Assembly: GCA_044892505.1 (NCBI GenBank)
Contig: CM097882.1
Coordinates: 157,480,001 to 157,544,000, forward strand
From: Schmidtea nova
Taxonomy: Eukaryota
Direction: 5' to 3'
DNA length: 64,000 nt
In this document: one piece after another, positions 33,158 to 64,000 of the stretch
Layout of the letters: each line of letters starts with the position of its first letter
How positions within the stretch are numbered: position 1 is the first letter of the stretch
Notes under the pieces: generated by a model
Databases searched by the model: none
The model's input: only the letters and a program-made list of their open reading frames with translations
Told to the model about the DNA's origin: nothing
Program-made: the position numbers and the translations under genes

Positions 33158-35357
33158 CACCTGGTTTCAAGCATTAAAAGTAACGGATCAAGTATTTTAT
33201 ACCCAAAAATATTTGATATTAACCCTTTAACTTTATATAATGCATATATGCATTATGGCTAAAAATAATATATAAATAATTTTTCAAATTTCAAATTATA
33301 CTAATCTATACTATTATCTTATACTATTGACACTTGTTTAAGAGTTAATTATAAAAAATTTAATTTAAATTATGAATTTCAAAAAACCCATGCATTTAGA
33401 TACTTTACAGACGATGTTGATTCGAATGACGGAAGAACAACTATTACCCTGGATGTTTTCAAAAGGACTGTATCATTCTGCCTGCATTTGTGACAGTTGT
33501 GGACAGGCTATGCAATTGAAACATTGCAAGGATTACATTGATTGTTATCAGTGGCGGTGTATGGTAACCACATGCCTCAAATACCAAACACCAAAAGTGT
33601 GCGGCAGGGAAGCTTTTTCGAGAATAACCGCCTGCCAAGTCTTACTAACTTGAAAGCTCTGATTCAATGGTCAATAGGAAACACGCAGGTGACTGTATTG
33701 AAAAACGTCAAAATTTCCAAAACCGCGTATTCTACAATGAGGAAAAAGATTACGCGATTGATTGAACACGAATTTCTTACGCATCCAATCAAGCTTGGTG
33801 GACCCTTTTCAGTAGTTCACATCGACGAAACTAAACTTGACTATAATGTCAAAAATCATCGAGGGAGAGGTCCAGGTACCCCTTGCTGGTGTATTTGCAT
33901 CGTGGACACTTCTTTTATCCCCTCACTGGGATATAATTTAATTGTTAAAGATCGTTCTGCCAACACATTGATTCCAATAATCAATGACGTAGTACTACCC
34001 GGATCTACGATTTTTACTGATGAATGGGCTGCTTACAGGTCTTTGGCAAAAGATCCAAACTTTGATTTTGGTACAGTTTGTCACAAATATCTTACCAAAA
34101 GTTATAATGGGAAGTTGAAGTACGCAATCAAAATGATGAAAGGGTTGATTTTAGAAGCGAGGAAATGATTTTTGGTTGATTTTATGTGGAGAGAACGGCA
34201 TACTGAAAATTGTTTTGATGATTTGCTTACGTTAATTAAAGTATGACGAGTTGTTAACATAAATATAATTATTTTTATCTCTTTAATTGCATGCCTTTAA
34301 TCATTACATTTAATTTGTGTTTATTAATTACAATTTAATCAGGGGGTATAAAATACTTGATCCAAAGTAACTATGATACAAGTAGGTGTACACACCTACT
34401 TGTTACTCATAGTTACTTTGTTTAATTCTAATTCATTTAGCCATTTATTTTTCATTTAGCCATTTTTTAAAAATGGCTATCAGGTAATTTTATTTGTCTA
34501 GATATCTTTTATTGCTTCTATTTTGATCTTACAATGATATAAGATTATTATTGAAGCTTTGAAAGTTTATCTTTATTCTTCATTATTATTTTGATTTTAT
34601 GTTTATGTTGAAAATATTTCATTAAACGTAACTAAAAATATTTTTTAACAGCAGTTTATTAATTAAATAAATCAGTATCCGAATATTTCAATTTTCTTGC
34701 AACATTTGAGGAAGAACCTGCGAATATGATCATAATAATTCTTTAAATTTTTGTAATCGTCCTTATTCCAGCTCGTTATCAATGGCTTCTTTGATCAAGA
34801 AAAATCTATCTTGAAAGGACATTGAGCCAAATTAATTTGCTCGAGATATTACCTTTCTTATGCTGAACTTAACTTTGCTGAAGATGCTTTCGATTGGATT
34901 TAAGAAAGGGCTGTATGGTGGCAAATTCACAATAAAATTATTTGGAGATAAGGCTCCTCCGTAAATGGAAGCGTTGTCATGAATGAGGTAAAACCCCGTT
35001 CTATTCAATTTGGATGATATCTCATCAATGAATTCTGATAAGTATTCTTTTTGTAAGAGCCTCAAATTAATTTGTGATGAATTGGCTCTTTTATACCAAT
35101 GGCGAGAACCAATGACATGTTTTCCCCCTGTTTGTTGGAATATTTTGTAATTTTTTACCAAAAAAATTTATTACACTTTTTAATCGCAAAACAAGATGTA
35201 CCCTTAAAAGTTTTCATGTAATTTTCATTGTGTGTTGTGTGTATAATTTATTTTTTCTTACAGAATGTTAAAAATTTTAAACTACGAAATATCAAAATGT
35301 AACATCTACGTAAGTTTTCATTTGCTATTGGTTATTTTTAATTTATATTATAAATAC
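33158..35357 (-). mobile_element. Second copy of the Tc1/IS630-like element, inverted, hosting a Merlin insertion
   Basis: TIR cacctggtttcaagcattaaaa at 33158; reverse complement of 394-1518; DDE fragment 34832-35161; runs into a gap. Confidence 0.88.
33185..34363 (+). mobile_element. Merlin (IS1016/ISXO2-like) transposon with frameshifted transposase
   Basis: 20-bp TIRs ggatcaagtattttataccc; 8-bp TSD aaagtaac (33177-33184, 34364-34371); CxxC...WRC, LGGP..VVHIDET, RSANTL.PII...V.PGSTIFTDEWAAY. Confidence 0.92.
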
Positions 35358-35494: not shown

Positions 35495-37163
35495 AGGGAC
35501 ACCCTCATTTTCTCTATTTTTCGTATGTGGCAATTCTAATAAACATCTGCGTCAGCAACAGGTACTGGTATGCGTAGCTATATGTATGACTAATGACTGA
35601 ACGTATGTATGCGTCTAAATAAATAAATAAATATATATATATGTGTGTGTGCGTGTGTGCGTGCGTGAGTTTGTATTAAGCCTGTAACTCGAATATGCAT
35701 ATAATTTGCTTTCAGTGGTAGCCAATCACCAGAAGCCTTTTTGTGTAATGAATAAGTTTGTTTGACTTTTTATAGCAGTTATTTTTACTTCCAGCATGGG
35801 TATTACCATCGATCAGCGGCAACGGATTATTACACTCTACATTGACGCCGGGATGTCCCAACGGGGTATCGGTCGACACACTGGGATCAATTTATCTTCC
35901 GTCAACCATATTGTAATGCGTTACAATAGTACTAGAGCCTCAAATTCTGCAAAGAAAGGGAAGATGTGATCGTAATAAACTGTCAACAGCATCACATGAC
36001 CGACTTATCTTGCGCAGCAGCATGAGAAACACTTGATTAAGTGATGTTGATATCAAAAGGGACATTGGAAGCCATTTATCTGTCCATACTATCCGTCGTC
36101 GGCTTAATGAAGGTTGAAGAAAGTTCAAGAAACCAATTGTCAAGCCAATGTTGACCATAAAAATGAAAAGCACGCGGCTTCAGTGGGCACTCCAACACCG
36201 CAACTGGACTGTGGAGCAATGGCTTTCGGTAAGTGCGGTAAATCTTTTTATATAGAAATTTGAGAAATATGGTTTTCTTCCCTAATACGCTTTGGAATAG
36301 ATAATTTTGTATAAGAAACATTTTTAAATGTTCTTCAGATAATACACTTTTTTTCAGGATTCCAATGAATTAAACATTATGGTTTCTAGTGTCTCACATT
36401 ACTTGGATTTGAAAATTTAAATTTTTTTACATTTGTATTCCTTCAGGTGATATTCAGTGACGAATCATCCTTCAAAGTACAATCGACACAGCCGCGCATC
36501 GTCAGACGCGGTTTAGAGCCAATATCCGCTCTACACATGTCTCAACGTGTTAAATACCTACAAAAAGTCATGGGGTTGCGTGTCTGTTTTTGACTTTGGG
36601 CATGTTTATATTGTTGAGGGAAATATGAACTCTGCGCAATATATGGATGTCATTCAGAGTCAGCTAATACCTCAAGCTATCGAATGGTTCGGTAGTAATT
36701 TTATATTCCAGCAGGATAACGCACCGTGCCACACTTCAAAGGCCAGCAAGCAATGTTTGGCAGAACACAACATCCGAGTGTTGCCGTGGCCGGCTAATTC
36801 ACTTGACATGAGCCAAATTGAGACATTATTGGCTATTACCAAGGCACAGTCAGCGTCTCAAGCAAAACAGAACTCATCAACACTCTCTTAAACATTTGCG
36901 TCCATGACAACGACACAAGTCACCGTCTCCAGGAGACATGCGCGAAATTGATAGATACCATGTCGAAGAGAGTCTAGACTTTAATAAAGGCTAAAGGTGG
37001 TCATACCAAATTTTAAAAAACATTTATCAATATTATGGTTTCTGCTTTGCGTAACAGATGTATTGTGAGTTGGTTTTAACTCGATTACTACAATGTGTAT
37101 CTCTTTATTTGGGGGAAAAAGAGAAAAATGAGGATGTCCATATTAATTTGCTCCCAATTGTGG
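35495..37163 (+). mobile_element. Tc1 transposon with an intron-containing, decayed transposase
   Basis: ATG at 35796 (MGITIDQRQRII...); WTVEQWLS|VIFSDESSF across a GT-AG intron 36229-36446; FQQDNAPCH, WPANSLDMSQIE; TIR-like ggaca(c/t)cctcattt at both ends. Confidence 0.85.
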
Positions 37164-47880: not shown

Positions 47881-48010
47881 AAATTTTAAGTTAAAAGTTA
47901 AAAATTCAAAATATTTTTCGTTTTTCGTTGTTTTCTTTCTACAGTTTCGGCCATTTGAGGCCTTAACGCTTCATTTTCTGCATTTCTAAAAATATCTTTT
48001 TTTAAATATT

Positions 48011-48262
48011 GGTGGGTTGTTGATCGTCAATATGACCTTGACGTTTCTATGGCTCTCATCAACAACTCAACACATAAAACATTTAAACTACCATCTTGTT
48101 ACCCGTCACTATGTAACGTTGGTACTGTAACAAGTGGGTGGGTATTCGCAATCAGTGAGCGTCGTCAATACGAAACTATGATTGACCGAATATCTCCTGG
48201 GTCCAAGGGCTACCGATAGAAGGTTTAATGCCCATTTTGTCCCTTCTTCGACGATTTATCTA
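48011..48262 (+). repeat. Dispersed structured repeat, full copy
   Basis: Aligns with the other copies and shows a compensatory pair change. Confidence 0.9.
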
Positions 48263-48789
48263 TAAGCTTTCAATAAAAATTTTCATCGGAAATTCAACAT
48301 AAACACTCTACATAACTATAAATTCATTATTGTATCCAAACAAATTATTCCGAGCATCGAAAACACTAATATAACCTTATATTTTACCAATATTGCATTT
48401 TATGATAATTAATACATAAAATATTTTATTTTTATAGAAAAATTTTAATCTGCATTTGAAATTTAAGAAAAACTCTAATTATTACCGTAATTTTATCGAG
48501 TTTAGAAATAATAAAAATAAAATTTCCGTTTGCTTAAAATTGCTAATTTAATCAAAAGGACGAATTTACTCAATTTAAAAATTATATTAATTTTAAATGT
48601 AATTTTCTGAATTTTTCACTAAATTGATTAATTAACGATTTATATAGTTCAGATCAACAAGAAATGGATCTCTCCAGAAACTACAAAGCCAGAGGAAAAT
48701 TCTCCCACCCCAAATGGGTCAAACCAACTAGAACTCGAGCTCCTACGAAGCAAAATAGCCAGCTCTACCGACCAAGTAAAATTTTGATT

Positions 48790-49803
48790 ATTTTAGAATT
48801 ATAATTTATTTTGAGCAATTTTAGAAAATTTCTTGAAGAGAATATGTTGGAACTGGCCCTTCAAGCACTGTAAACTGGAAAAATCCTTGCCGGAGATTCT
48901 TATCCCTCAAACTGAATGACCATCAATTTTTATCAATAAATTTTTAGATAATTTTTTTCGTCTTTACTCTTTTTCGTTTGAGTTTTTATTATTTTTATGA
49001 AATTTTTGTAAATGGGAAATTAAAATAAACTGTAATGTAAATGGCCTATTTGATTGTACTAAGTTTGGCTGGGTATATTTAATTTTATATGGTATGGTTG
49101 AATGATAGATATAAGTGAATGAAATTTTGGTATGGTTTTTCTGGATGTATGATGCCGACTAACATAACTGTGTAGAATTTTCAGTATGGTTTGCTTGTGT
49201 GTATATAACTATTGAATGCTAATAAATGATACTGTGTATGTGTGTATATTGTATTTTAAATATATGTTGCCTGTGTATTAGTATGGGAAATGTTATTGAA
49301 TGAAATGGATGTAATTTTTTGCAAATAGGGATGCGTTATGATTTTTGAGATATCGTGGGGGGTATTTATAATATACTATATATAAATTATATAAAATATT
49401 TTTAAAATTAAAATAATAATAATAATTTTTATATTAAAATAATAATAATAATTTTTATAATAATTTTTATAAATTTTAGATTTATAATTTTACGAAAGTA
49501 ATATAATAATAAAATTTCTAATTTTTATAATATATATTTAATAATTTTTATAAATTTATAATTTTATGAAAATAATATAATAATAAAATTTCTAATTTTT
49601 ATAATATAAATTTTTATAATACTTTTTATAAATTTTAAATTTATAATTTTATGAATATAATAATAAAGTTTATAATTTTTATAATATACACTTTTATAAT
49701 ACTTTTTATAAATTTTTAATTTATAATTTTATGAAAGTAATATAATAATAAAATTTCTAATTTTTATAATATACATTTTTATATTCGAATTTTTATATTT
49801 TAA

Positions 49804-49837
<34 letters not shown>

Positions 49838-51620
49838 AAAAAATTTTTCCTATAGAATTTTGAAATTTTGGATTTTTTAAAATGATAAAATTTTCAATAT
49901 AATAATAATATTTTCGATTTAAAATTTTTATTGGTTTCAATATAAGTTTTGATTTATAAATTCTTAGGAATTTTATAAAATGACAAAATCTTTTATATCA
50001 TAACAATATTCGGAGAATTTTTGGTTCACAATTTTTCATTATAAAAATTTTTCCAATATAATAAAAAGTAAATTTTTATTTTTTGATCGAAACGAAATCC
50101 ACATCATAATAAATTTTTCATCCATAGATTTCGAAATCTAAATAAGCATTTAATCTAAAAAATTTTTATATGCTAAATAAAAATAAAATAAAAATAAGTT
50201 ATAAATTTTTCAACGAATATTTTTCGACATCGAATAAAGTTAATTTCGGTTTCATTATTATTCCATCGGATTTGAGCATTAATTCGAACGATTTACTTTT
50301 TAATATCGGTTTTTAATATCCTGGATCTTGGATGAGAAGAAAATTATTGTGAAGGTGAAGGCGAAGGACGAGTAAAATGTTTTTGCATAATTATTTTTCC
50401 TAATGGAAAAGATGTTGCTGGAGAGATTGGTTTTTACGTTTACATGTGGTATTAATTTTCAATATATCAAAAATTATAAATTCGGATAAACTACATTTAT
50501 TATAAATTAATATCATTAATATAATTTCTTGCCTTGGGCCAAGCCACTGTTCCCCAGTTGGGATGAAGTGATCATGGATGGTTAGGCTATTCACCTGAAC
50601 TCGGAAAAATGGACTGATCGATTTACGTATCGAACCAGCGATCCGCTCAGGCTACTTCCACCCGATCGGCACAAGGCCAGACACAGGCTTCAGGGGGTAT
50701 GGAAAAAAAAATTTATTTAGTTACTTTTATCATTTTTTAAGATAATATTGTGGATTTAACTCTCTGAGATTTTGTGACAAACAAAAAAAAATTATAAGTA
50801 AATATTTTAATATTCATTCGATAAAAATAGCATAACAATAATAATATAAAATTATAAAAATATTACCGGTACGGGGTAATCGAACAGGCATGGTGTTCGA
50901 TGACCCCGCGCCAACAAAAGAATAGGACTTACGAATAAATTAAAATTTATAAGTTTTCTTGAATAAAATTTCACAAAATTCTGATAAATTCCATTTTGAT
51001 GGCGGTATATATACCATCGATTTTGCGTTACCTTCAGTAGTGTAATAAAACAAATTGTTCTAGAATTTTCCATTTAATTTTTCTAAATTAATTCTAATGA
51101 TTTTCCGAAAATTAAATCCATATTTTTGTGTAATAATTTTTTACAAAACACAAATAATTTATTTTAATTCCAAATTTTTGTTTTTGAATCGAAATTTGTT
51201 CGATTTGATTTAATTTACGATATTTCGATTAATTTTAGTTCTTTTTATTGTTAATGTGAAATATTTTGATAAAATCACAATTTTCGGCTAAAATTTTTGT
51301 TAATTTTTTCTGCATGAAGGTTTTTATAACACAATTCCGTTTTTTGGGTATTTTCAATGGGTTTTGCGCCTATTCTAACTTTTAAACGTTCTTCTTTTGA
51401 TGGTATTTGATTTTTCTCGAGGTTTCAATGTAAGGGCTTTCAGACTCACAGCTAGCGCGTTCTCTACTGGTTGATGTGTTGTGAGTCCACTTCACCTTTT
51501 GTTGTTTTTCACTTAATTGCTTGGATTTTTAATGGATTTTTGGGTTAAAACTGAATCTTGCGCGCTCTCTACCTATGGGGTTATCGTTTTATTAAAACAG
51601 TTTGTGGTTTTTGCCCAACA
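48790..51620 (-). mobile_element. 3' LTR (copy C) of the giant Gypsy element; left boundary uncertain (~48300-48790)
   Basis: Begins TGTTGGG on minus at 51620, ~1.2 kb downstream of the polyprotein end; homologous to copies A and B. Confidence 0.8.
50998..51018. promoter_or_regulatory. Palindromic TATA element in the LTR
   Basis: gatggcggTATATATAccatc, conserved at 44464-44484 and (TATATAAA) at 3646-3666. Confidence 0.5.
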
Positions 51621-52844: not shown

Positions 52845-53471
52845 TTATACCAACGTCTCCTGAGGGCCGAAATATAGGTTTCGCATTCCCCCATACAATT
52901 CATTTGTAGTTCGATATATATCTGCTTCTATTATTGACGGATTTATCGTTGGTGGTAGTCCTTGCATCCACATTCCATTGAATTCTGATCCATTGCATAT
53001 CTCATATTCGTCTTCCGTCTTTACTTCTTCTAAACTGATTCCATATTCAAACTTCTCGATGCTTGGCCATTGTCTCTTTCTTTTCGGTTTTCTTTTACAT
53101 CTTCCAGTGATTTTTGCATGTTGTGTGAGAATCAAAACCAATATTGTGCCTATTATTCCGGCAGTTATCCATATCATTTTGATTGCTATTTTTGATTCTT
53201 CTACTGCTGCTGATATTGTTGTTGGAGATTCCGTTGTTGTTTGTACGATTTTGATCGGTCTCCCTCCTTGAATTATTCGTTCGGCTTCTTCCTCCGATAT
53301 ATATTTATTATAAACTGTTGATTTTGTTGTTAGTATTTGATCTTCTGTACTGAATTTTCTGGTATCGTCTACTCGTCTAGGTAATTTTGAAATAAATTGA
53401 CATGTTGGATGTTCATTTAATTTTTTGTAGAGGCATACCCGGTATTTAGTTCCTCGTTCCCATCCGGCTAC
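52845..53471 (-). CDS. Frameshifted continuation of the polyprotein: end of FN3-like repeat 4, Thr-rich stalk, TM helix and cytoplasmic tail
   Basis: The -1 frame is open from ~53495: VAGWERGTKYRVCLYKK...TTTESPTTISAAVEE...MIWITAGIIGTILVLILTQ-HAKITGRCKRKPKRKR... Confidence 0.8.
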   Translation of the reverse strand, partial: VAGWERGTKYRVCLYKKLNEHPTCQFISKLPRRVDDTRKFSTEDQILTTKSTVYNKYISEEEAERIIQGGRPIKIVQTTTESPTTISAAVEESKIAIKMIWITAGIIGTILVLILTQHAKITGRCKRKPKRKRQWPSIEKFEYGISLEEVKTEDEYEICNGSEFNGMWMQGLPPTINPSIIEADIYRTTNELYGGMRNLYFGPQETLV

Positions 53472-54770
53472 ATAATAATAAATGATTTTTCTTCTTTATT
53501 GCTCACACTTTTACACTTTTCTTGTTGTAGTTTTACTTCATAAATGCATATTCTAGCAATAAGATGTCCTTGTACGTTTTTGACTTTTATAATATCATTT
53601 TGAAAGAATTTTTCGGTTTCTTTTTGTATTCGGTTTGGAGTGATTGATATTGATATTTCTTTTCTGTAACCTTTGACTATCGTTGGTTTCTCTGTTACAG
53701 TTATTGTTGCTCTTGGGAGTCTTATTGCTTTTTCAACCGGTTCTCTCCCGCTTTCTGTGCTTGTTATTATTTGTTCTGTTGTGGTGTGTTCTTGACAAAT
53801 TGGGACTAACGTTCTCCATATGCATATTAGATACGTTGTCTTTGATTCTAACTCTTTGATTATCATTTGTTCCTTTCCCTTTACTGACTGTTGATAGCAT
53901 TTGCTAGGGTTGTCAAGCCCACTATTCATATCGACCTTTCTCCAACAAACCTTTTTGATTACTTCGTCATGGTTGTTTATTAGTATTATTTCCGTGGATT
54001 TCGTTTCTACTATCAGAGGGTAATAAGTAGTTGTTCCATTGGTTGTTGTAGTTGTCGTTATGATTTCCTTGGTGAGTTTTTCTAGACATAGTTTTTGTGT
54101 CCATATTCTTCTTATGCATATCGTGTAGCTTGTTCCTGGCTTCAATCCTGGTATTCTGAATTTTCCAATTTGGCCTGTCATTTGAAATTTACACGATAAT
54201 TGTCTGTCTTTATTTTGCATATGGATGGTTTTTATCCAACAAATTTGAGTTATAGGCTCTATCACCTTGTTTGTTATCATCATCTCTTTTTCTTTCACTT
54301 CTATTGTTGTTTTGTTCTGGATCGTCATCATAATCTTTTTATCTTGCTCTTCTTCTTCGTTTTCTTCTTCATTTTCATCTGTTGAGGTTTTTGTGACACT
54401 TTGTATTTTTTCTAGCTTGTTCCTCTCGTTTCCCATTTTCGTAATCTTTTCTTTAGCTGCACAGATTGCTCTTATTTGATTTGTCCGATATACACATATT
54501 ATATACGTTGTTCCTGATTCGAGTTTTTCGATCTTTTGCTCTTCTCCTATTGCTAATGCTGTTCTTATGCATTTCTGGTGATCACTGACTCCATTTTTCC
54601 GTATTGCAACTGTACATATTTTAATTATTAGCTCTCCTTTGATATTCGTTATCCATATATTTTCTGTATCTGTAACTATTCTCGCCTCTGCTCTCCTCTG
54701 ATCAAATATGTAATCAATTGCTTTCACCCAATTCAACATTGTCAATAATATTGTCATAATTATTGTATTT
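53400..54770 (-). other. Second signal-like segment plus four FN3-like repeats
   Basis: NTIIMTILLTMLNWVKA; repeats LESGTTYIICVY, LKPGTSYTICIR, LESKTTYLICIW, WERGTKYRVCLY. Confidence 0.75.
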
Positions 54771-57700
54771 TTACCTGGATTTTTAAGTAGACATACCGTT
54801 CGATTTTCATAGTTGGAATTTTCTTGTCCATTCTTGTTCTCTTTATTTTCGTCTTCGTTTTCGTTGTTTTTATTCTCCCATTTGTCACTGTTTCTGTGAT
54901 TTCCGTGATCGCTGTTATTATCATTTAGCTGCTGTTCATTGCTATCGTTGTCTTTATCGTCTGATTTGCCGTCATCGGGATCGTTCAGATCACCCTCGGT
55001 TTCTTTTAAAATGTCGTCCTCGACATTTATATCTTTGATTATTTCCCAATATAATTTGATAATTCTTTGTTCATCTAATTTTATTTCACCCATTTTGCAT
55101 TTCAATGTTCCAGCATCGTCGTGAAGATAACTCTTGTCTTTATTTTTGATCTTTTTTCGCCATTCTTTAACCAATTCAAGTAGTTTTTCTCTCTTTGTTT
55201 TTATTTTCATTTCTTCGTTTGGCTTGTTTGTGAATCTGAAGTCTGATCTTTTTAGTAGTGCTTTTGCTACTCTAGGTAATGTCCAATTTTCAATCAAAGC
55301 TCGCTCCATTAACACGTTTTTATCATTTTTGAACTCGTTGTTCACATTCATCAGTCCTTCTCCAGAGAGTGGATCTTTCCATTTTATCATTTTTGTAGCT
55401 ACTATTTCGTCTTTTCTCATTACTGCTCTTAATAATGGCTTTGGATTTAAACTCAGGATTTTAATGTCCTCTTGACTTGCTTTTGATAAAAGGTACTTGG
55501 CTATTGTATAATAAGGTGATCTGTAAACGTATGATAGTACAGTTTCATTGTTGTTATCCCTTTCTTTGATACTTGACCCTGTTCTTAGTAACTCCTCGAT
55601 TAAGTCTTTGGACCCTCCTTCTTCTACTGCTAGCATTAATGGTGTTTGTCCTTTCCAATTTTTTATATTCGAGTGTTGTCCACATCTTTCCATGAGTTTA
55701 ATTATTTCCATAGCTCTTTTTCCTTCTCCCTTCCTCAAGGCTACATTTAGTGGTGTTTTCTCATTGAAATCAGTCATTGTAAATAATATTGGCATTCGCT
55801 CCTTGATTATATTAATAACTTTTGGTGTTGCCTTTCCTCTGGCATAATCATCTATTATCCGATTTAGTCCGTTTATTATTTCGAATACGTGTTTGCCTTC
55901 TGTCCATTCCGGCATAATCTCTTTTGCTGTTTCTATTATCAGATCCATTTCTTTTATATGTTCGATTCTCGCATCATCCGTTATTTCTTGCTTAATTTGT
56001 AATGTTGGACTTCTCATCTTTGGTGCAAAGAATGTTGTGTCTCCAAAACATCCACATCCTTTACTCTTTCTAAGCATGCATATTTGTCTTGTCTGTGATC
56101 TGGTCATTATTCTCCTTTCCTCTGGTTCTTTTGTCGCAGTTTTTTCTACTCGTTTACATCTACACACATTCACGTATATCGGTCGAACTAACGGATTGTT
56201 GACTAATTTTACCCGGATATTATTTTTGCTAACAAATATGACTTCATATGGTCCTTTTCCCGTTCTCTGTAATTTTTTCGCTGTTCCTGGGATGATTTCT
56301 GGTGTTTCGACTATCACCCAATCGCCTAGCTTGAACTGATGTTCATGTACATTTCTCTTTTTGTCGTGTAGTTCTTTGTAACTCTCTTGATTGAATCGTA
56401 TATTCATACCTGCAACTTTCCAAATTTCTTGCATTCGCTCCTTGAATTTTGTTACGTAATCATCGATTTCCATATATTGTGATATTGGTGGTTGATATTC
56501 AAGATCCATTGGCATGTTGCATTCTCTGCCGTACATCAATTTAAACGGACTCATTTTTGTTGCCGAGTGAATCGACATACGGTATGCCATTAGACATAGA
56601 TTCACATATTCATCCCAATCCTTTTGGTGTTTACTGACATAATTTGACATCATCTCAATCAATATTCCGTTAAATCTCTCCGTTTGTCCATTTGTTTGGG
56701 GATGATATGGTGAAGTTCTCAACTTAGCTATTCTGAAATAATTGGTAACTTCGTTGATGATCTCGCTCATAAAATTTGTTCCTTGATCGGTTAAAATTTG
56801 TTTTGGTGTTCCATATCTACAACATATTTCTTCGACTAATATTTTGGCTATTGTTCTAGCTTTCTGATCTGGCATTGCAAATGCTTCTGGAAATTTTGTT
56901 AAGTAATCAGTTATTACTAATATATAAACATTTCCATGATTTGTTTCTGGTAAGGGTCCTACTACATCCATTGCGATCATTGTCATAGGTTCTGGTGGAA
57001 TTGGCATTGGTTTTAAAGGTGTTTTCATTTTACTGCCAGTGCTTTTTCGCGTTGCACATATTAGACAATTCCTAATCCATTCTTTCACGTCTTCCCCAAT
57101 ATTTGGCCAAAAATATTTCTGTTTTAATCTCGCTTCCGTTTTCTTAGCTGACATATGTCCACCAAGTTTTCCATCGTGGTATTGCATCAGGATGTCTTTC
57201 CTTCTACTTTCTGGTAAACACATGAGTCTTTTTTCTCCGTCCATTGCTAATAACCAGCCTTTTTCAATTGTATATTTGTGCCTGTTTTTCTCCATATGCT
57301 CCTTTAGTTGGCTGTTATGCTCAAAGATTTTCATATCATTCTTATTCAAATATTCGATGATTAGTTTTAGCTCTTCATCTTCATTTTGTTCCTGTTGCAG
57401 TTTAGTGAAATCAATATCTTCTGCGATTATCATACATATTCGCCTGACATCTTTGTCCATTAGTTCTTCAAACATAAATCTTGACATACAATCCGCATTT
57501 GCGTTCGCTTTCCCTGACTTTAACTTTATATATGGCGAATATTCTTGTAGCTGCATTGCCCATCTCATCAATCTGCTTGACGCTTCTTTATGCTGGCCTA
57601 ACCATACTAACGGTTGATGATCTGTTGTGATGTATATTTCGTGACCCCACAATAGATATTTGAAATGTTTAATCGCCTGAATGATTGCTAGCGCTTCTCT

Positions 57701-60700
57701 TTCCGTTACTGAGTAATTCTTCTCGTGTTTTCGAAAGGTTTTGCTGTAGTATCCTATCACTCTTTCTCTCCCATCTTCATCCCATTGTCCTAGTACGGCT
57801 CCTGACGCATATCCACTTGCGTCGGTTGCTAATAGAAATGGTTTTTTGAAGTCTGGGTGTACTAATATTGGCGATGAAATTAATTTGTCTCGCAATGCTT
57901 CGAATGCATTTTGTTGTTCTCTTCCCCAGATAAATGGTGTATCTTTTTTGACTAGCTCTTGTACAGGCTTTGCAATTCCCGCGTAGTTTTTAATAAATTT
58001 CCGATAATAACCGCATAGTCCTAAAAATTCTTGTATTTGGGTTATGGTTTTCGGTATTGGACAATTTTTTATCTTTTCGATATTTCTTGGGTCCGGCTCT
58101 TTTCCTTTAGCTGATACAATGTGACCCAAAAAGGTAACTTTTGGTTTTGCCCAATCACATTTTGAGGGTTTTAATTTTAATTTCCATTGCCTTAATCGGA
58201 TAAATACGTTTTGGATATCTTGTAAATGTTGATCGAATGTACCCGAGTAAATCAATAAATCATCAATATATACCATATATTGTTTTATCCCGTGAGTTAC
58301 AAAATTCATACATCTTTGGAATGATGCAGGTGCATTAGTTAAACCAAATGGCATCTTTTTGAACTGGTACAGATCTTTTCCGATGGTAAACGCTGTTTTC
58401 TCTCTGTCCTCTTCTTTCACTTTGATCTGCCAGTAACCGCTTTTCAAATCTAATGACGTGAAGTATGCTGCACCATGTAATGTTTGTAACATTTCGTTGA
58501 TATCTGGTAACGGGTATGTATCCCTCTTGGTTACTGCGTTCAATTGTCGATAATCAATACAAAATCGTTGGGTACCATCTTTCTTTTTTACCATTACTAC
58601 TGGAAATTGCCATGGTGAACAACTTGGTTCAATCACATCTGCGTCTAACATCTTTTGCACTTCGGCTTCGGCCACTGCTTCCTGCGCCTCCGCTAGTCGA
58701 TATGGTCTCAATGTGATCGGTGTTTCGTCTGTTAGGGGAATAGTATGTTGAGTTACATCACTCGTTCCCAAGTCTAAATCAGATGCTGCAAAGATGTCTT
58801 TAAATTCTAACAATACTGTTTTTAGTTGTTCTTTTTCAGTATCGTTTAAAATTTCACTGTCGATTACCCATAACTCTTCCACTTTACTCTCATCCTCTTG
58901 AATTTTAGGTAGTTCAATATTCAACATCGGGGTTAATTTTCCCAATCTCTCGTTTTCGTAGATGATTTTGTCTTCCTCGTCGAAATTGGTGATGTTGATT
59001 GGTATTTCGTTTTCTTTGTTGACGTTCACTATTTCTCTTGCCAATGGTAACTCTTTTCTCATCTCAAAATTTTGATTTGGTTCAAATATCATTTCACCGA
59101 CTGCCGTGTCTTTCACTTTGGTGAAACATATCATTTGCGTTCTTCCTGGTACGACAATTTTCTTTGAACACCTTACTTCCGTTTTCATTGAACAGATTTG
59201 TCCGCTTTTATCTTTCAACCTCATCGTACTCAAATCGATAACAATCTCCTTTAGTAATTCTGGCATTAAGTCTGTCCCAATGATACATGAGGCACCCAAT
59301 TGTTTTATTACAGCTAAGTAAGTAGACATCTCTACATCTTTATACTTAATATCTGACCATATTTTCCCAATAACTTTGACGGATTCTTTATTGCACGTGA
59401 CCACATCCATTGGTGCTTCTTCAATGCAAGGCCATAACATGCCTGGTATCATATTCATGTTTATTGCTGATATATTTGCACCGGTATCTATCATTGCATC
59501 CATTTCAACACCGTTGATTTCAATGGCAATAGTAAGGGTTGGTCCAGCGGATGTTCTCATCATGGCTATTGTCATTGTTTCTAGATTTTTCTCTTCGCTT
59601 TGTGGTCTGTTTAGTATTGTTGGGTCTGGTCTGTTTAGTATTGCTGGGTCAATCATTGCCCAATTTGGTTCGTAATGTGCTGGGTAGAAATTTGGCATTG
59701 GTAACATTCGTAGTCCAGCTCGTGTTTTTTCTCTCACTGTTCCTGGTCTTTGTGGGTTAGGGTATGTCATTGGTGGAAGATTTTGACCTTCCCATTGTTT
59801 TGATTTTTCTGCTTCCCATATTGGTGCGGTACCATTTGATCCGGAGTTCGCTCCTCCTTGATTTCCTTTATCATCGTTATCACTATCGTCATCATCCGAG
59901 TCTTTCCTTCGGTTATCCCACCATCTTTTCCATCCACTACGTCTGGTTTCTTTGTATTTCGTTCTCTCTGCTTCGTTTTTCATAATGAATCTAAATTTTC
60001 TACCGATCTCTTCGTCGGTTCCTTTCATCTTGGTCAGTATTCCAATTAACCTCTTTATTCTATGAATGTCTTTTGAATGCCCATGCAATACCATAGTTTT
60101 AGCCAAAAATGGTAGGAATCCAAGTGCCATTTTCCAATTGATTTGTCTCTCTCTTTTATAGATATCAAAACAAGCTAGCATCTGAGTTATAATAACTCTG
60201 ACTATTTGAATAATTAGGATTATCCCTAATATTCCTGCCATCATCTGTCCAAATACTAAGAATTTTCCCCACATAGCTTTCATCATATTATTGGTTGCGT
60301 GTTTGAAATGTTCTGGTGACAACAATAACTCGTAATTCGGACTTCCCACGAAATTTGTTCCACCGGTTATGGCTATAATATTTGATAGTACTGCTTGTCT
60401 TTGGGTTGGAAATAGTATGTGCTTTCTCGCTGCTTCTAAATCTGCATCTCTGTACACTCCACTGTGTGAAATATCTATGGGTTTAAATTCTATTTCTGTT
60501 GTTAACTCTGTTAATCCAAATCGTTTAGGTGCTGATACAATTTGCCGATTTGGAAATACTACCCATTTTCCATTTCCCATGTCATACATTGGTCCATACG
60601 CATTACTACAATTGAACTGATGGGGTTCGTAATTTGGTGGATTTATTATTCTCGTTACTGCTTGTACAAATCGACTTCTTCCTTTATAGAATATTTCCAA

Positions 60701-63700
60701 TTCGTTAGTACATCGGTTTTCTGGTATTCTTGGTCTTTCCGGTAGTCTTGCTATCTCTTTTTTACATTTGTATGTATACATAACTTCTCCCACAATTCGA
60801 CCAAAATGTCCTTCTTGCAGTGGTAATAATGGTATTGCGTTATCTGGATTCGTTATAGCCATTGCTAATTTGGTTCTCAAGATTTCTATGTTCAATAGAC
60901 AATCGTTTTGTATCAAATCGTGATATACTTTCTCTGTGGTTGCCATACCTCTATGGTATAAGAAATCCATTTTATTATTTGCGTACAAATACGTTTTAAT
61001 GTCCACTTTATCTGGTTTTGGTGCTGCTTCAGCTATCACTGTTGTAGATAGGAAAATTCCTTTGTAATTCGTTTTTATTACTAGTCTTCCGCATTTACTG
61101 ACGGTTTCACCTTTGATAAATCTCATTCCCACTCCTGGATCTTTCGATATAATTGCTGTTGGTGTATTTACTAATTTAAGTCTTTCGGTTGTCTCTTTAT
61201 GCTGGAATGTTCTTGTTCTCTTGAGCTGTTCCATTTCTTGTCTGGTTGAATCATCTTTGGGTTCGTCATAAACTTTTCCTAGTATTTCCTCGAATTCAGC
61301 TTCTTGTAATAACATTAGTCGACATTTATTCGCATCTGCCTTATAAATCAATGTTGATGCACCGGTATTACACGAGGTATGTTCTGCAGAACAACTTGGG
61401 AATTTTCTCATTGATAGCGTGTCTGGATCAAAATATCCCGGATATGTTTCTAATTTCACTTGATACATTTCTATTACCACTACATTGCTGACCACTTTTC
61501 CAAATAGCGTGTATGCTCCTCCTGTACAGCTTCCGTCTGGTTTATTGACGTATCCAGCTGCATAAACTCTTGTTATTTTAATTGCTCCTGGTTGGGCAGC
61601 TACGATTATGTTTCCTGCTAACGATATCCGTTTTGAGGTAAATGCTTCATTGCACTTTTCGCTATCCAGTGATATTACGGTTGATTCCATTCCTGGTTCG
61701 ATAATTGTTGAATATGAATATTGTCCACAGTAATACGCAAATAACTTTCTCGTAACCGTGCATTCTCTTATTTCTGCTTTGATGAGGTCTGATTCCTGAT
61801 ACACGTTGTAACTTATTTTATTCACAATTCGTTCCAACTTTTTCGGCGTGGCTTGTTTACAATCTTCCGTATCTTTTAATGAATATTTCTCGCTAAGCTC
61901 GATTTTGTCACAATCGTATACCACAAACGCTGTTGCTCCCTTTATGCACATCATCCAAATTAATATTGTGGTCAATATCGCATTCATACTCTTCCCATAT
62001 GTTCTTTGATCGCGAAAATTCATTGATCCTTCGAATTCTGTTAATAATTCTCTCAACTTTACTTGCATGGTTTCCGTTTGATCTATTTTATCTACTGAGT
62101 TGATGAATATTTTCCAACCTCCTTGTTTCATTATATACGGCTCTATCAGTTTCTCAATGATTTCTGTTATAGTGAATATGTGACCATTGGGATTATATCT
62201 GGGTGTTCTTCGCTTGTACAAGACGATCATATTGTACATTAGATATGCCAAGCTTACTAAATATTTTGCTGGTTCGTTCGTGTTTTTTGTCAGTTTTTCG
62301 ATAATTTCTTTCATTTCTGCAGGATTTCTCAACGTCATTCGTACTTTTCCTTCGATGATTTTTGAGATTATTGATTTAATCGTTATCCATAGTTGTTTAG
62401 CTTCTTGTTGGATATGATCTCTTTTTAGCGCCCTTTTTATTTCTGGGTTTGCCAATGCAAGCATATCAGATACTAATTCATTTATCCATCGGATTCCTTG
62501 TTCGGTTATTGGTGTATTACCTTTCACTTGATTTGCAACTGTCACTAGTTTGCTTACTTTTAGTTGTAATTGTTCCGTCTTGCTTACTGATGTTGGTTTT
62601 TGATTTCTTTCTGTTTGATCTTTCGCCGGCCTCCCTCTTGGGCGTTTATCTATCATCGTTCCAGCTTCTCGTCTACTTGGCTGATTATTCGCGATTTCTC
62701 TAGATGTTGTTGCTCCTCTATCTGTGATCCAATTAATCCATTCTTCAGTTGTAGAATTTTCTCTTGCTCGTTTTTGTACTTTTTCTCGGTCAGTTTCATC
62801 ATCGGTTGCTGTGATTTTTTGCCGTTTTACCCAAGGAATTCTCTGGTCATCGGTTGTTGTTTCATTTTCTATATTTGAGAATAAATCCCCTGAGTAAAAT
62901 GCTGTTTCGTCGTTTTCTCTATTCGCAATATTTGTCAGTTCTTCTAATACGTCTTCATCAGTTGTTTCGACAATAATTTCACTTGCAGCTTCCGGTATTT
63001 CTGATTCGTCTAAATTTCCGAACAATTTTCTCATCTGAGTTCGATTTCCCTCTTTTCTGATTAGTTCATTGCCTGCAATTTTATAAACAGTTAAATGATT
63101 ACTTGTTCCGATTCGTATCGGGGTTACACCAATTTCTATCTCATCATCGAGTGATCTTCCTTCGTACTGTAGATGAAATGGTAATTCAAATGGCAGTTTC
63201 TTTTTAATCTCTTTCATTTTCATGGTTGCTAATACTTCCAGCTCTTCCTTTCCAAAGTCTGGAAAATGGATTTTTAATCCACATTTTTGCGGTTCGTCAC
63301 TTTCCCATTCCATTTGCCTCCATTTTCTTCTAAGCTCATCGAATTGTTCTGGATACCAAGTGTATACCCGTCCATATTCCTCGATTTCCTTCATGAGCAT
63401 TGTCATGGTTAATCTATCCTTGCCGTTCTCGAGAATCCATTTTGCTAATTCGACTACCGCTCTTCGTTGATTTTTGGCACCTTTTTCTAGAATATCGATT
63501 AACTGTCTACTTTTTTGGGCTTCAGTTCTCTCTAATACCTCAGGGTCCGTCAGTTCATCCATATCTACAGGACGTAATCTCGAGGTTGTTTCTTGTTTTC
63601 TCAGCACGCTGATTCTGGGAATTGTCAACTTTTCCCTTACGTCTTCCTCAATTTTGCATGAAACGTAAATATCTCCTTCACTTTGATATCGAGATTTTTT

Positions 63701-64000
63701 ATCTAATAGCAAGTGTTGCAAGATAAATTTTGGTGCTCCTGATGCTATATTTTCCTCTTTTCCTGGTTTATGATAGCAGCTGCTGAGCTTTTCTGGATAA
63801 ATTTCTTCACTATGACCCTTCTCTGAATTGTAGGATGATCCTATAGACAATGTTACTTTTTGATCTAACGGCCATGTTAATTCCTCGTCATTGATCCCTT
63901 TACAGATGATATAAAATAATGACGTATGGGTTCCTTTACCAACTCCATCTCCGTTTGGATAAATTCTCATTTTTAGTTTATATCCACCTGGGTAAGTGTA
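53468..64000 (-). CDS. Giant Ty3/Gypsy polyprotein (>3500 aa, 5'-incomplete): MATH - Bcl-2-like - Env - PR - RT - RH - IN - ANK - FN3-like
   Basis: Open from base 64000 (YTYPGGYKLKMRIYP...). DTGA protease (~59488), RT with YIDD (~58270), RNase H ATDASG...TDH, integrase HHCC plus D-D-E plus GPY; order PR-RT-RH-IN. Confidence 0.95.
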   Translation of the reverse strand, partial: YTYPGGYKLKMRIYPNGDGVGKGTHTSLFYIICKGINDEELTWPLDQKVTLSIGSSYNSEKGHSEEIYPEKLSSCYHKPGKEENIASGAPKFILQHLLLDKKSRYQSEGDIYVSCKIEEDVREKLTIPRISVLRKQETTSRLRPVDMDELTDPEVLERTEAQKSRQLIDILEKGAKNQRRAVVELAKWILENGKDRLTMTMLMKEIEEYGRVYTWYPEQFDELRRKWRQMEWESDEPQKCGLKIHFPDFGKEELEVLATMKMKEIKKKLPFELPFHLQYEGRSLDDEIEIGVTPIRIGTSNHLTVYKIAGNELIRKEGNRTQMRKLFGNLDESEIPEAASEIIVETTDEDVLEELTNIANRENDETAFYSGDLFSNIENETTTDDQRIPWVKRQKITATDDETDREKVQKRARENSTTEEWINWITDRGATTSREIANNQPSRREAGTMIDKRPRGRPAKDQTERNQKPTSVSKTEQLQLKVSKLVTVANQVKGNTPITEQGIRWINELVSDMLALANPEIKRALKRDHIQQEAKQLWITIKSIISKIIEGKVRMTLRNPAEMKEIIEKLTKNTNEPAKYLVSLAYLMYNMIVLYKRRTPRYNPNGHIFTITEIIEKLIEPYIMKQGGWKIFINSVDKIDQTETMQVKLRELLTEFEGSMNFRDQRTYGKSMNAILTTILIWMMCIKGATAFVVYDCDKIELSEKYSLKDTEDCKQATPKKLERIVNKISYNVYQESDLIKAEIRECTVTRKLFAYYCGQYSYSTIIEPGMESTVISLDSEKCNEAFTSKRISLAGNIIVAAQPGAIKITRVYAAGYVNKPDGSCTGGAYTLFGKVVSNVVVIEMYQVKLETYPGYFDPDTLSMRKFPSCSAEHTSCNTGASTLIYKADANKCRLMLLQEAEFEEILGKVYDEPKDDSTRQEMEQLKRTRTFQHKETTERLKLVNTPTAIISKDPGVGMRFIKGETVSKCGRLVIKTNYKGIFLSTTVIAEAAPKPDKVDIKTYLYANNKMDFLYHRGMATTEKVYHDLIQNDCLLNIEILRTKLAMAITNPDNAIPLLPLQEGHFGRIVGEVMYTYKCKKEIARLPERPRIPENRCTNELEIFYKGRSRFVQAVTRIINPPNYEPHQFNCSNAYGPMYDMGNGKWVVFPNRQIVSAPKRFGLTELTTEIEFKPIDISHSGVYRDADLEAARKHILFPTQRQAVLSNIIAITGGTNFVGSPNYELLLSPEHFKHATNNMMKAMWGKFLVFGQMMAGILGIILIIQIVRVIITQMLACFDIYKRERQINWKMALGFLPFLAKTMVLHGHSKDIHRIKRLIGILTKMKGTDEEIGRKFRFIMKNEAERTKYKETRRSGWKRWWDNRRKDSDDDDSDNDDKGNQGGANSGSNGTAPIWEAEKSKQWEGQNLPPMTYPNPQRPGTVREKTRAGLRMLPMPNFYPAHYEPNWAMIDPAILNRPDPTILNRPQSEEKNLETMTIAMMRTSAGPTLTIAIEINGVEMDAMIDTGANISAINMNMIPGMLWPCIEEAPMDVVTCNKESVKVIGKIWSDIKYKDVEMSTYLAVIKQLGASCIIGTDLMPELLKEIVIDLSTMRLKDKSGQICSMKTEVRCSKKIVVPGRTQMICFTKVKDTAVGEMIFEPNQNFEMRKELPLAREIVNVNKENEIPINITNFDEEDKIIYENERLGKLTPMLNIELPKIQEDESKVEELWVIDSEILNDTEKEQLKTVLLEFKDIFAASDLDLGTSDVTQHTIPLTDETPITLRPYRLAEAQEAVAEAEVQKMLDADVIEPSCSPWQFPVVMVKKKDGTQRFCIDYRQLNAVTKRDTYPLPDINEMLQTLHGAAYFTSLDLKSGYWQIKVKEEDREKTAFTIGKDLYQFKKMPFGLTNAPASFQRCMNFVTHGIKQYMVYIDDLLIYSGTFDQHLQDIQNVFIRLRQWKLKLKPSKCDWAKPKVTFLGHIVSAKGKEPDPRNIEKIKNCPIPKTITQIQEFLGLCGYYRKFIKNYAGIAKPVQELVKKDTPFIWGREQQNAFEALRDKLISSPILVHPDFKKPFLLATDASGYASGAVLGQWDEDGRERVIGYYSKTFRKHEKNYSVTEREALAIIQAIKHFKYLLWGHEIYITTDHQPLVWLGQHKEASSRLMRWAMQLQEYSPYIKLKSGKANANADCMSRFMFEELMDKDVRRICMIIAEDIDFTKLQQEQNEDEELKLIIEYLNKNDMKIFEHNSQLKEHMEKNRHKYTIEKGWLLAMDGEKRLMCLPESRRKDILMQYHDGKLGGHMSAKKTEARLKQKYFWPNIGEDVKEWIRNCLICATRKSTGSKMKTPLKPMPIPPEPMTMIAMDVVGPLPETNHGNVYILVITDYLTKFPEAFAMPDQKARTIAKILVEEICCRYGTPKQILTDQGTNFMSEIINEVTNYFRIAKLRTSPYHPQTNGQTERFNGILIEMMSNYVSKHQKDWDEYVNLCLMAYRMSIHSATKMSPFKLMYGRECNMPMDLEYQPPISQYMEIDDYVTKFKERMQEIWKVAGMNIRFNQESYKELHDKKRNVHEHQFKLGDWVIVETPEIIPGTAKKLQRTGKGPYEVIFVSKNNIRVKLVNNPLVRPIYVNVCRCKRVEKTATKEPEERRIMTRSQTRQICMLRKSKGCGCFGDTTFFAPKMRSPTLQIKQEITDDARIEHIKEMDLIIETAKEIMPEWTEGKHVFEIINGLNRIIDDYARGKATPKVINIIKERMPILFTMTDFNEKTPLNVALRKGEGKRAMEIIKLMERCGQHSNIKNWKGQTPLMLAVEEGGSKDLIEELLRTGSSIKERDNNNETVLSYVYRSPYYTIAKYLLSKASQEDIKILSLNPKPLLRAVMRKDEIVATKMIKWKDPLSGEGLMNVNNEFKNDKNVLMERALIENWTLPRVAKALLKRSDFRFTNKPNEEMKIKTKREKLLELVKEWRKKIKNKDKSYLHDDAGTLKCKMGEIKLDEQRIIKLYWEIIKDINVEDDILKETEGDLNDPDDGKSDDKDNDSNEQQLNDNNSDHGNHRNSDKWENKNNENEDENKENKNGQENSNYENRTVCLLKNPGKNTIIMTILLTMLNWVKAIDYIFDQRRAEARIVTDTENIWITNIKGELIIKICTVAIRKNGVSDHQKCIRTALAIGEEQKIEKLESGTTYIICVYRTNQIRAICAAKEKITKMGNERNKLEKIQSVTKTSTDENEEENEEEEQDKKIMMTIQNKTTIEVKEKEMMITNKVIEPITQICWIKTIHMQNKDRQLSCKFQMTGQIGKFRIPGLKPGTSYTICIRRIWTQKLCLEKLTKEIITTTTTTNGTTTYYPLIVETKSTEIILINNHDEVIKKVCWRKVDMNSGLDNPSKCYQQSVKGKEQMIIKELESKTTYLICIWRTLVPICQEHTTTEQIITSTESGREPVEKAIRLPRATITVTEKPTIVKGYRKEISISITPNRIQKETEKFFQNDIIKVKNVQGHLIARICIYEVKLQQEKCKSVSNKEEKSFIIM
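55480..55790 (-). other. Ankyrin repeats downstream of integrase
   Basis: EKTPLNVA, GQTPLMLAVEEG..DLIEELLRTGSSIKERDNNNETVLSY. Confidence 0.85.
60100..61987 (-). other. Signal peptide plus class III-like envelope glycoprotein with C-terminal TM
   Basis: MNAILTTILIWMMCIKGATA|FVVYDC...YSL.D...C...YQ...ECTV...YYCG.YS Cys pattern of chuvirus-G/gB-like proteins; TM FLVFGQMMAGILGIILIIQIVRVII. Confidence 0.75.
62090..62580 (-). other. Bcl-2-like helical domain within the polyprotein
   Basis: LIEPYIMKQGGWKIFI matches BH2 (Bcl-xL HLEPWIQENGGWDTFV); preceded by amphipathic helices; no NWGR. Confidence 0.6.
63647..64000 (-). other. TRAF-type MATH domain within the polyprotein
   Basis: GYKLKMRIYPNGDGVGKGTHTSLF...WP..QKVTL...KP..EENIASGAPKF. 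Confidence 0.9.

What the first reader, a model, noticed from the sequence alone, without database searches (positions are those of the whole stretch)
60100..61987. Envelope glycoprotein placed upstream of protease, inside the pol reading frame
Seen: internal signal peptide, a Cys-patterned ectodomain of about 550 aa (YDC, ECTV, YYCG, C..GGAY, GPMY) and a TM helix, followed in frame by the DTGA protease about 250 aa later. Known: errantiviruses and retroviruses put env 3' of pol as a separate ORF; chuvirus-like/gB-like class III fusogens have been captured by some invertebrate LTR elements. Inference: this is an independent env capture at an unusual position, with release by signal peptidase and the element's own protease.
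Basis: partly seen in the sequence, partly recalled or inferred. Interest (0 to 1): 0.85.

Follow-up and report, generated by a model that had tools for sequence, protein, structure and literature searches.

The report
Burro-type retroelement with in-frame envelope
This is a giant jumping gene of a kind already described in planarian flatworms: its one long protein carries a segment predicted to fold like a viral membrane-fusion protein ahead of its copying enzymes, so it likely builds enveloped virus-like particles, and a second, predicted cell-surface protein ends the same chain.

Summary
Window 60100-61987 (minus strand) encodes a signal-like segment, a 552-aa ectodomain with 14 Cys and a TM helix. 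They share one frame with upstream MATH and Bcl-2-like domains and downstream protease, RT, RNase H, integrase and ankyrins. The ectodomain matches Pfam Monjiviricetes_fusion (E 7e-69). Its model (pLDDT 91) resembles chuvirus G (TM 0.71) and herpesvirus gB (Z 11), a class III fusogen fold. The element is a ~28.6 kb Burro-type Ty3/gypsy LTR element with many young copies; this copy has two frame breaks. Arkhipova and Yushenova (2019) reported this in-frame env in Burro; Chary and Hayashi (2026) list six gB-type Schmidtea elements and GAG-ENV-POL order in flatworms. Env is under purifying selection and tracks the RT tree, so it is an old feature of the lineage, not a fresh capture. One thing I did not find in print: in 5 of 6 families here and 2 library relatives, the polyprotein ends with a second signal-like segment, ectodomain (FN3 fold where modelled) and TM helix. 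This implies flavivirus-like processing, with Pol tethered to the Env tail. Fusion, particles and cleavage are untested.

The parts
48010..51620 (-). 3' LTR (~3.6 kb). The 5' LTR lies beyond the window and is split by a nested element
   Evidence: 99.08% over 2945 nt and 99.7% over 672 nt to the two 5' LTR pieces; 4-bp target duplication ATAT
53471..64000 (-). Main polyprotein frame of this copy (continues 435 codons beyond the window). Gag with CCHC knuckles lies further upstream in another frame
   Evidence: unbroken copies have one 4993-5006 codon frame
63650..64000 (-). TRAF/MATH domain
   Evidence: Pfam PF21355 E 8.7e-19
62000..62479 (-). Bcl-2-like domain ending in a BH2-like GGW motif, directly before the Env signal segment
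   Evidence: Pfam Bcl-2 weak in this copy (E 0.062), E 1.5e-4 in family E; six-family profile hits Bcl-xL at E 7e-5
61928..61987 (-). Internal signal-peptide-like segment (SP1), predicted cleavage after GATA
   Evidence: hydrophobicity; an equivalent segment precedes [YF]DC in 6 of 6 families and 13 of 13 library proteins printed; N-terminal position in 62 of 89 stand-alone relatives
60272..61927 (-). Class III fusogen-like ectodomain, 552 aa, 14 Cys, one N-glycosylation sequon
   Evidence: PF24664 E 6.9e-69; model pLDDT 90.8; chuvirus G TM 0.71, E 2e-37; gB E 1e-13, Z 11.2, rmsd 7.0 over 415 residues
60188..60244 (-). Env transmembrane helix
   Evidence: most hydrophobic 19-mer of the frame; conserved
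59537..60187 (-). Conserved post-TM amphipathic segment, then a variable acidic/proline-rich linker to the protease; no stop between env and protease
59255..59536 (-). Aspartic protease (DTGA)
   Evidence: Pfam gag-asp_proteas E 2.3e-6, RVP E 5.6e-5
57539..58591 (-). Reverse transcriptase and RNase H
   Evidence: Pfam RVT_1 E 2.8e-36, RT_RNaseH E 2.7e-38
56660..57214 (-). Integrase zinc finger and core
   Evidence: Pfam Integrase_H2C2 E 1.1e-20, rve E 6.3e-12
55478..55708 (-). Ankyrin repeats
   Evidence: Pfam Ank_2 E 5.8e-8
54719..54763 (-). Second signal-peptide-like segment (SP2)
   Evidence: third most hydrophobic 19-mer, weaker than SP1; equivalents in 6 of 6 families
53771..54709 (-). 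Three four-cysteine FN3-fold repeats; a fourth spans the frame break near 53.5 kb
   Evidence: Pfam fn3 E 1.5e-6 in an unbroken copy; repeat alignment; model pLDDT 79.5, top VIA match an FN3 domain at Z 10.1, rmsd 2.0 over 80 residues, FN3 domains dominate the list
52848..53495 (-). C-terminal piece in a shifted frame in this copy: end of repeat 4, stalk, second TM helix (53127-53183), cytoplasmic tail
   Evidence: in frame with the polyprotein in 4 of 4 unbroken copies

Best explanation
This is the envelope gene of a Burro-type giant Ty3/gypsy LTR retrotransposon, lying in frame between the Gag/Bcl-2-like part and the protease, and its product is predicted to be a class III (chuvirus G/herpesvirus gB-like) fusion protein that is likely cut out of the polyprotein at the ER membrane and would let particles enter new cells. 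SHOWN: one frame, the domain order, the LTRs, many young copies, purifying selection on env. PREDICTED: the fold. INFERRED steps: (1) SP1 directs the chain into the ER and signal peptidase cuts after it, leaving Gag-MATH-Bcl-2-like anchored by the SP1 stub. (2) The ectodomain folds in the lumen and the TM helix returns the chain to the cytosol. (3) PR-RT-RH-IN-Ank is therefore made on the Env tail, not on Gag, and would reach particles with Env before the protease frees it. (4) SP2 and TM2 deliver a second type I membrane protein with FN3 folds to the same membrane.
For: Fold and family. 13 of 14 Cys are at least 90% conserved in 118 sequences. Aromatic/hydrophobic residues at two hairpin tips. 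SP1 position matches stand-alone G signal peptides in 62 of 89. Four alternating hydrophobic segments give a consistent in/out topology with all enzymes cytosolic. Env pN 0.084 against pS 0.73 between families E and F. 49 of 80 scored family copies lie in frames of 4900 codons or more, and none of the 80 has a stop in env. Published anatomy of Burro and gB-type env in Schmidtea elements.
Against: No experimental evidence of cleavage, fusion or particles. No signal-peptide predictor was available; the hydropathy scales were recalled. A Met opens SP1 in 5 of 6 families, which allows a separate start. No canonical furin motif in 3 of 4 families checked. This copy has two frame breaks and a split 5' LTR, so it is itself probably not autonomous. 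Env-less derivatives with LTRs 99.7-99.98% identical also spread, so env is not needed in cis. Similarity to gB is of overall architecture only (rmsd about 7 A).
Confidence: 0.75

Rival explanations
1. Env (with Pol behind it) is made mainly from a spliced or internally started message beginning at the Met that opens SP1, so SP1 is an ordinary N-terminal signal peptide and Gag comes from a different product.
For: A Met stands at or next to the start of the hydrophobic core in families A, B, C, D and E (5 of 6). Subgenomic env messages are the norm in errantiviruses (recalled).
Against: The DNA upstream of that Met is purine-rich with no pyrimidine tract in 6 of 6 families (by eye). Family F and most of 13 library relatives lack a Met there. 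The frame upstream is open and conserved.
Confidence: 0.12
2. Env is kept as a membrane scaffold for intracellular assembly, or for cell-cell contact or interference, and no infectious extracellular particle is made.
For: Env-less derivatives mobilise. No particle data were found in the papers read. An obligatory tether for Pol would also be under purifying selection.
Against: The whole luminal ectodomain, its cysteines and its hairpin-tip aromatic residues are conserved, more than a tether would need.
Confidence: 0.1
3. The hydrophobic segment is the uncleaved tail anchor of the Bcl-2-like domain, so Gag-Bcl-2 stays joined to Env.
For: It follows the BH2-like GGW by about 45-50 aa in this family, as a Bcl-2 tail anchor would (anchor position recalled).
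Against: It ends in small residues just before the conserved [YF]DC, as in stand-alone G proteins and in all 13 library relatives printed. A cleaved signal that then anchors Bcl-2 explains both facts.
Confidence: 0.03

Closest known systems
Burro1/GYPSM1 giant gypsy elements of Schmidtea mediterranea (PMC6431247, section read)
   Same: One ~4.9k-aa ORF (4893 aa from first Met here; 4873 aa published), Gag with three CCHC knuckles, MATH, Bcl-2-like, env between Bcl-2-like and protease, PR-RT-RH-IN, ankyrins, long LTRs, about 26-30 kb.
   Different: No BIR/IAP found in this family (it is in a nested derivative). SUMO-like only weakly seen, via the nested homologue; dUTPase-like not detected. The section text does not mention the C-terminal signal-FN3-TM module (figure not seen). 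That paper likened env to gypsy Env and mononegavirus glycoproteins; the model here is class III.
Smed_errantivirus_1-6, HSV/gB-type errantiviruses of S. mediterranea (PMC13524379 and supplements)
   Same: gB-type ectodomain; the paper gives GAG-ENV-POL order for Platyhelminthes elements. By eye, Smed_errantivirus_6 shares the runs SYNVYQE, STIIE, TRVYAAG, YQVKLE and GYFDPDT with this protein, and Smed_1 resembles family B (no identity computed).
   Different: The main text has no 'polyprotein', 'in-frame' or 'fibronectin', so processing and the second membrane protein are not discussed there.
Chuvirus/Monjiviricetes glycoprotein (Pfam PF24664; Tacheng tick virus 4 G)
   Same: Best structural match, TM 0.71, 21% identity; same signal-ectodomain-TM layout.
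   Different: A stand-alone gene in a negative-strand RNA virus, with an N-terminal signal peptide and a short tail.
Herpesvirus glycoprotein B
   Same: Same domain architecture with a long central helix; Foldseek E 1e-13, Z 11; weak profile match E 3e-4.
   Different: 10-12% identity, rmsd about 7 A. gB needs gH/gL (recalled); no such partner is shown here.
Flavivirus/alphavirus polyprotein processing (works-like comparison, recalled)
   Same: Alternating internal signal sequences and stop-transfer helices release structural proteins from one chain.
   Different: No homology. Here a retroviral Gag and Pol lie on either side of the glycoprotein.

Membership tests
Ty3/gypsy LTR retrotransposon (Metaviridae) | PR-RT-RH-IN order with upstream Gag | tested here: met
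Ty3/gypsy LTR retrotransposon (Metaviridae) | LTRs with target-site duplication | tested here: met
   3.6 kb LTRs 99.1-99.7% identical, ATAT duplication
Ty3/gypsy LTR retrotransposon (Metaviridae) | tRNA primer-binding site | tested here: inconclusive
   a PBS-like tract follows the 5' LTR; its tRNA-Pro likeness is recalled and a search for the recalled tRNA motif found nothing
Burro giant elements | Giant size and one ~4.9-5.1k aa polyprotein | tested here: met
   about 28.6 kb without the nested insert; 4993-5006 codon frames
Burro giant elements | Gag with 2-3 CCHC, MATH, Bcl-2-like, ankyrin | tested here: met
Burro giant elements | env in frame between Bcl-2-like and protease | tested here: met
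Burro giant elements | SUMO-like and dUTPase-like motifs | tested here: inconclusive
   Rad60-SLD E 0.018 only in the homologous stretch of the nested element; nothing in the window stretches; HHpred, used in the paper, was not available
Burro1 specifically | BIR/IAP region | tested here: not met
   no BIR in this copy's frames and no further same-strand ORF of 200 aa or more in 4 of 4 unbroken copies; so filed as Burro-type, not as Burro1
Class III viral fusogen (gB/chuvirus G type) | Fold: long beta-hairpin fusion domain, central helix, beta-rich crown | tested here: met
   model and searches
Class III viral fusogen (gB/chuvirus G type) | Signal peptide, TM anchor, conserved cysteines | tested here: met
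   by hydropathy, position and conservation only
Class III viral fusogen (gB/chuvirus G type) | Bipartite hydrophobic fusion loops | tested here: inconclusive
   candidates GQYSY and YTLFG at hairpin tips with conserved aromatic/His columns; assigned by analogy, not by superposition
Class III viral fusogen (gB/chuvirus G type) | Trimer and membrane fusion activity | not testable with these tools
   a trimer exceeds the complex tool's size limit; no assay
HSV/gB-type errantivirus, GAG-ENV-POL group | gB-type env 5' of pol in a multi-copy Ty3/gypsy element | tested here: met

The most novel reading that the evidence does not exclude
Burro-type elements are infectious endogenous viruses that process one polyprotein through four membrane signals into Gag-Bcl-2 (anchored), a class III fusogen carrying Pol on its tail, and a second, fast-evolving FN3-fold type I membrane protein that serves as the attachment or partner protein of the fusogen. 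That would be a two-glycoprotein entry system with Env-borne Pol packaging, which I did not find described for a retroelement.
Probability: 0.3. Interest if true: 0.72.

Novelty: new member of a known kind. Interest (0 to 1): 0.36.

Why it matters
The flagged arrangement is a known oddity, so this copy adds little by itself. It matters because nobody, in the papers I could read, has explained how such a chain is processed. The in-frame layout forces Gag and Pol onto different membrane-anchored pieces, so Pol cannot be packaged as Gag-Pol and would have to ride on Env. The conserved second membrane protein gives a concrete candidate for receptor binding or host-signal mimicry. Burro1 is reported to support planarian stem cells (second-hand, via PMC13465017), so whether these elements also move between cells is a testable question.

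Tried and rejected
Single-sequence search of solved structures found nothing relevant for the ectodomain; only the 118-sequence profile reached gB. Word-indexed homologue searches gave 2 and 3 proteins and none for the family C second ectodomain (near lengths only). RNA evidence: no RNA holder listed, and no reads were laid, so splicing and expression stay untested. dUTPase-like and SUMO-like motifs were not detected in the window. The bromodomain hits (E about 0.1) were rejected as chance. Atlas scores for the second ectodomains (0.81, 0.87) point to FN3 but are leads only. In the trees P0064 was a spurious RT hit and is disregarded, and family E was dropped by my span filter; deep branches are unresolved, so no donor or order of events is claimed. 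A post-TM second membrane pass was rejected as too polar; my regex for that motif in stand-alone relatives was too strict (1 of 89) and is not used. The within-family count of 81 synonymous against 43 non-synonymous variants (13 of 15 loci usable) is biased because 9 loci were top protein-score hits, so it is not relied on. No tRNA gene near the element. Earlier scan findings: none. No complex prediction was run. Grohme 2018, Lee 2026 (Dev Cell), Sacco 2022 and Jurka 2007 were not read.
Full report
Observation. The finding lies in one minus-strand frame, window 53471-64000, open at the window edge. The frame holds a hydrophobic segment at 61987-61928, a 552-aa region with 14 Cys, a TM helix at 60244-60188 and the DTGA protease 262 aa after the ectodomain end. 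Pfam gives MATH, Monjiviricetes_fusion (E 6.9e-69), protease, RT, RNase H, integrase and ankyrin in that order.

The element. Neighbouring genome stretches show the frame runs 3945 codons and is preceded by an 880-codon frame with Retrotrans_gag and CCHC knuckles. LTRs of about 3.6 kb bound the element; they are 99.1-99.7% identical, with a 4-bp target duplication. A 24.3 kb second element is nested in the 5' LTR. This copy is broken into three frames, with breaks near 53.5 kb and just beyond the window end. In the own genome all 80 scored env matches are 98-100% identical with no stop inside, and 49 of 80 lie in frames of 4900 codons or more (my count; a lower bound on copies). Four copies fetched, chosen for long frames, have one 4993-5001 codon ORF with three CCHC knuckles, exactly four hydrophobic segments and LTRs 99.91-99.98% identical over the parts held. 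The family is therefore young and recently active.

What the protein is. A full library scan found 767 relatives at E up to 0.001. In an alignment of 118 sequences, 13 of the 14 Cys are at least 90% conserved. The AlphaFold2 model has mean pLDDT 90.8, long beta hairpins and a 48-residue central helix. Its best viral matches are chuvirus-type glycoproteins (Tacheng tick virus 4 G, TM 0.71, 21% identity). All listed PDB matches are herpesvirus gB (E 1e-13; Z 11.2, rmsd 7.0 over 415 residues), and the profile also reaches gB by sequence (E 3e-4). Candidate fusion loops sit at two hairpin tips with conserved aromatic or His columns; this assignment is by analogy. In 62 of 89 stand-alone-sized relatives the conserved [YFG][DE]C lies 12-45 residues from the N terminus behind a hydrophobic stretch, so the internal segment is the glycoprotein's own signal peptide, now internal. 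It directly follows a Bcl-2-like domain and after cleavage would anchor that domain (inference).

Old, not fresh. Searches with a relative and with the Pfam model found five more families in the same genome (B-F, my labels). All have gag-env-PR-RT-IN in one frame of 3232-5147 codons; env of B, C and D is 33-54% identical to the window's. Env is under purifying selection: E against F gives 85% amino-acid identity, pN 0.084 and saturated pS 0.73 over 534 codons. RT and Env trees of ten usable elements share their three starred clades (A+D, B+C+F, P0016+P0017); deeper forks are open (P0064 disregarded, E not included). So env was inherited with pol in this lineage. One discord: A and D share 91% in RT but 50% in env, against 94% and 85% for E and F, which may reflect recombination.

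What is known. [quoted passage not shown] Chary and Hayashi 2026 (PMC13524379; abstract, part 1 of section 6, passages, supplement rows) report GAG-ENV-POL with HSV/gB-type env in Nematoda, Bryozoa and Platyhelminthes and find that these elements are not one clade. They list six S. mediterranea elements; number 6 shares several exact runs with this protein by eye. Passages of PMC8532177 show BURRO1 is transcribed and piRNA-controlled. The stem-cell role of Burro1 is known to me only second-hand through PMC13465017. Sacco 2022 was seen as a reference title only. The family here lacks the BIR region listed for Burro1, so I file it as Burro-type, not Burro1.

What may be new. After integrase (and ankyrins, where present) the chain carries a second signal-like segment, an ectodomain and a TM helix. 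The full module is present in families A, C, D, E and F (5 of 6); B has the signal segment, but its frame ends about 245 aa later without a clear TM. Of four library polyproteins with an integrase motif, two have the full module with FN3-like motifs, one has a signal-like segment and unclear anchor, and one ends too early. In family A the ectodomain is four four-cysteine repeats; Pfam fn3 E 1.5e-6. A model of one repeat (pLDDT 79.5, 7-row alignment) matches FN3 domains (best Z 10.1, rmsd 2.0 over 80 residues; Foldseek only E 1.4e-3). The C/E/F ectodomain has no Pfam hit in family C and only a weak FN3 lead in E. The module is constrained but faster than env (E/F pN 0.23, pS 0.70). I did not find it described in searches; 'fibronectin' is absent from the main text of PMC13524379. 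Grohme 2018, Lee 2026, Jurka 2007 and the figures were not seen and may show it.

Mechanism. The four segments alternate signal, anchor, signal, anchor, which places Gag, all enzymes and the ankyrins in the cytosol and both ectodomains in the lumen (topology inferred). No stop separates env from protease in 6 of 6 families, so Pol is made on the Env tail whichever start is used. Signal peptidase would cut Gag away from it. The simplest reading is assembly on an ER-derived membrane, with Pol brought in by Env and freed by the protease, followed by gB-like entry. None of these steps is shown. Rivals are a separate start at the SP1 Met (present in 5 of 6 families, but without an obvious splice acceptor) and a scaffold-only Env (env-less derivatives do spread).

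Verdict. Observation confirmed; fold interpretation supported; novelty claim not supported, since the arrangement is published for this element kind. New member of a known kind, interest 0.36. The second membrane protein and Env-borne Pol are the parts worth following.

Noticed in passing
G000:C1, window-equivalent 75935-100236 (L012-L032): A 24.3 kb element with 3846-bp LTRs 99.74% identical is nested in the 5' LTR. It carries protease, ankyrin, a TRAF-like RING/zf/MATH ORF and an IAP-like BIR+RING ORF (BIR E 2.8e-16), with no env, RT or integrase match: a recently mobile non-autonomous carrier of apoptosis genes.
   Followed up: partly
L113-L115 and L116-L118; 14 of 81 matches have 1350-codon frames: An internally deleted derivative of this family (about 19-20 kb, LTRs 99.95-99.98%) lacks gag, env, protease and RT but keeps the ankyrin-SP2-FN3-TM2 frame open (2 of the 14 examined).
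   Followed up: partly
L068:3957-5423, L064:3126-4643 (family B); similar-sized ORFs in E and F: A separate 470-510 aa ORF follows the polyprotein; in family B it matches the RNase_T/DEDD exonuclease family (E 1e-5 to 1e-6). E and F equivalents were not scanned.
   Followed up: partly
families A and D: RT 91% identical but env 50% and gag 39%, unlike other family pairs; possible pol recombination.
   Followed up: no
window-equivalent ~72980 and families B, E, F: The PBS-like tract lies about 10 nt from the LTR end in family A and looks tRNA-Pro-like; B, E and F have a tRNA-Trp-like tract 3-5 nt from the LTR end (labels recalled).
   Followed up: partly
library proteins P0001 and P0012: Env ends the protein 136 and 57 aa after the ectodomain with long N-terminal extensions, suggesting relatives in which a stop separates env from pol, or broken copies.
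   Followed up: no
window 10034-12496: Overlapping opposite-strand ORFs with an RT motif (YIDD) and a GIY-YIG-like end, likely a Penelope-like element with an inverted repeat (label recalled, not tested).
   Followed up: no
window 21365-21964: Exons of a PP1-like serine/threonine phosphatase gene (GDIHG, GDYVDRG, GNHE motifs; label recalled).
   Followed up: no
window 17606-18374, 31812-32375, 33542-34168, 36517-36891: Fragments resembling DNA transposases (hAT-, pogo/Tc1- and Merlin-like; labels recalled).
   Followed up: no
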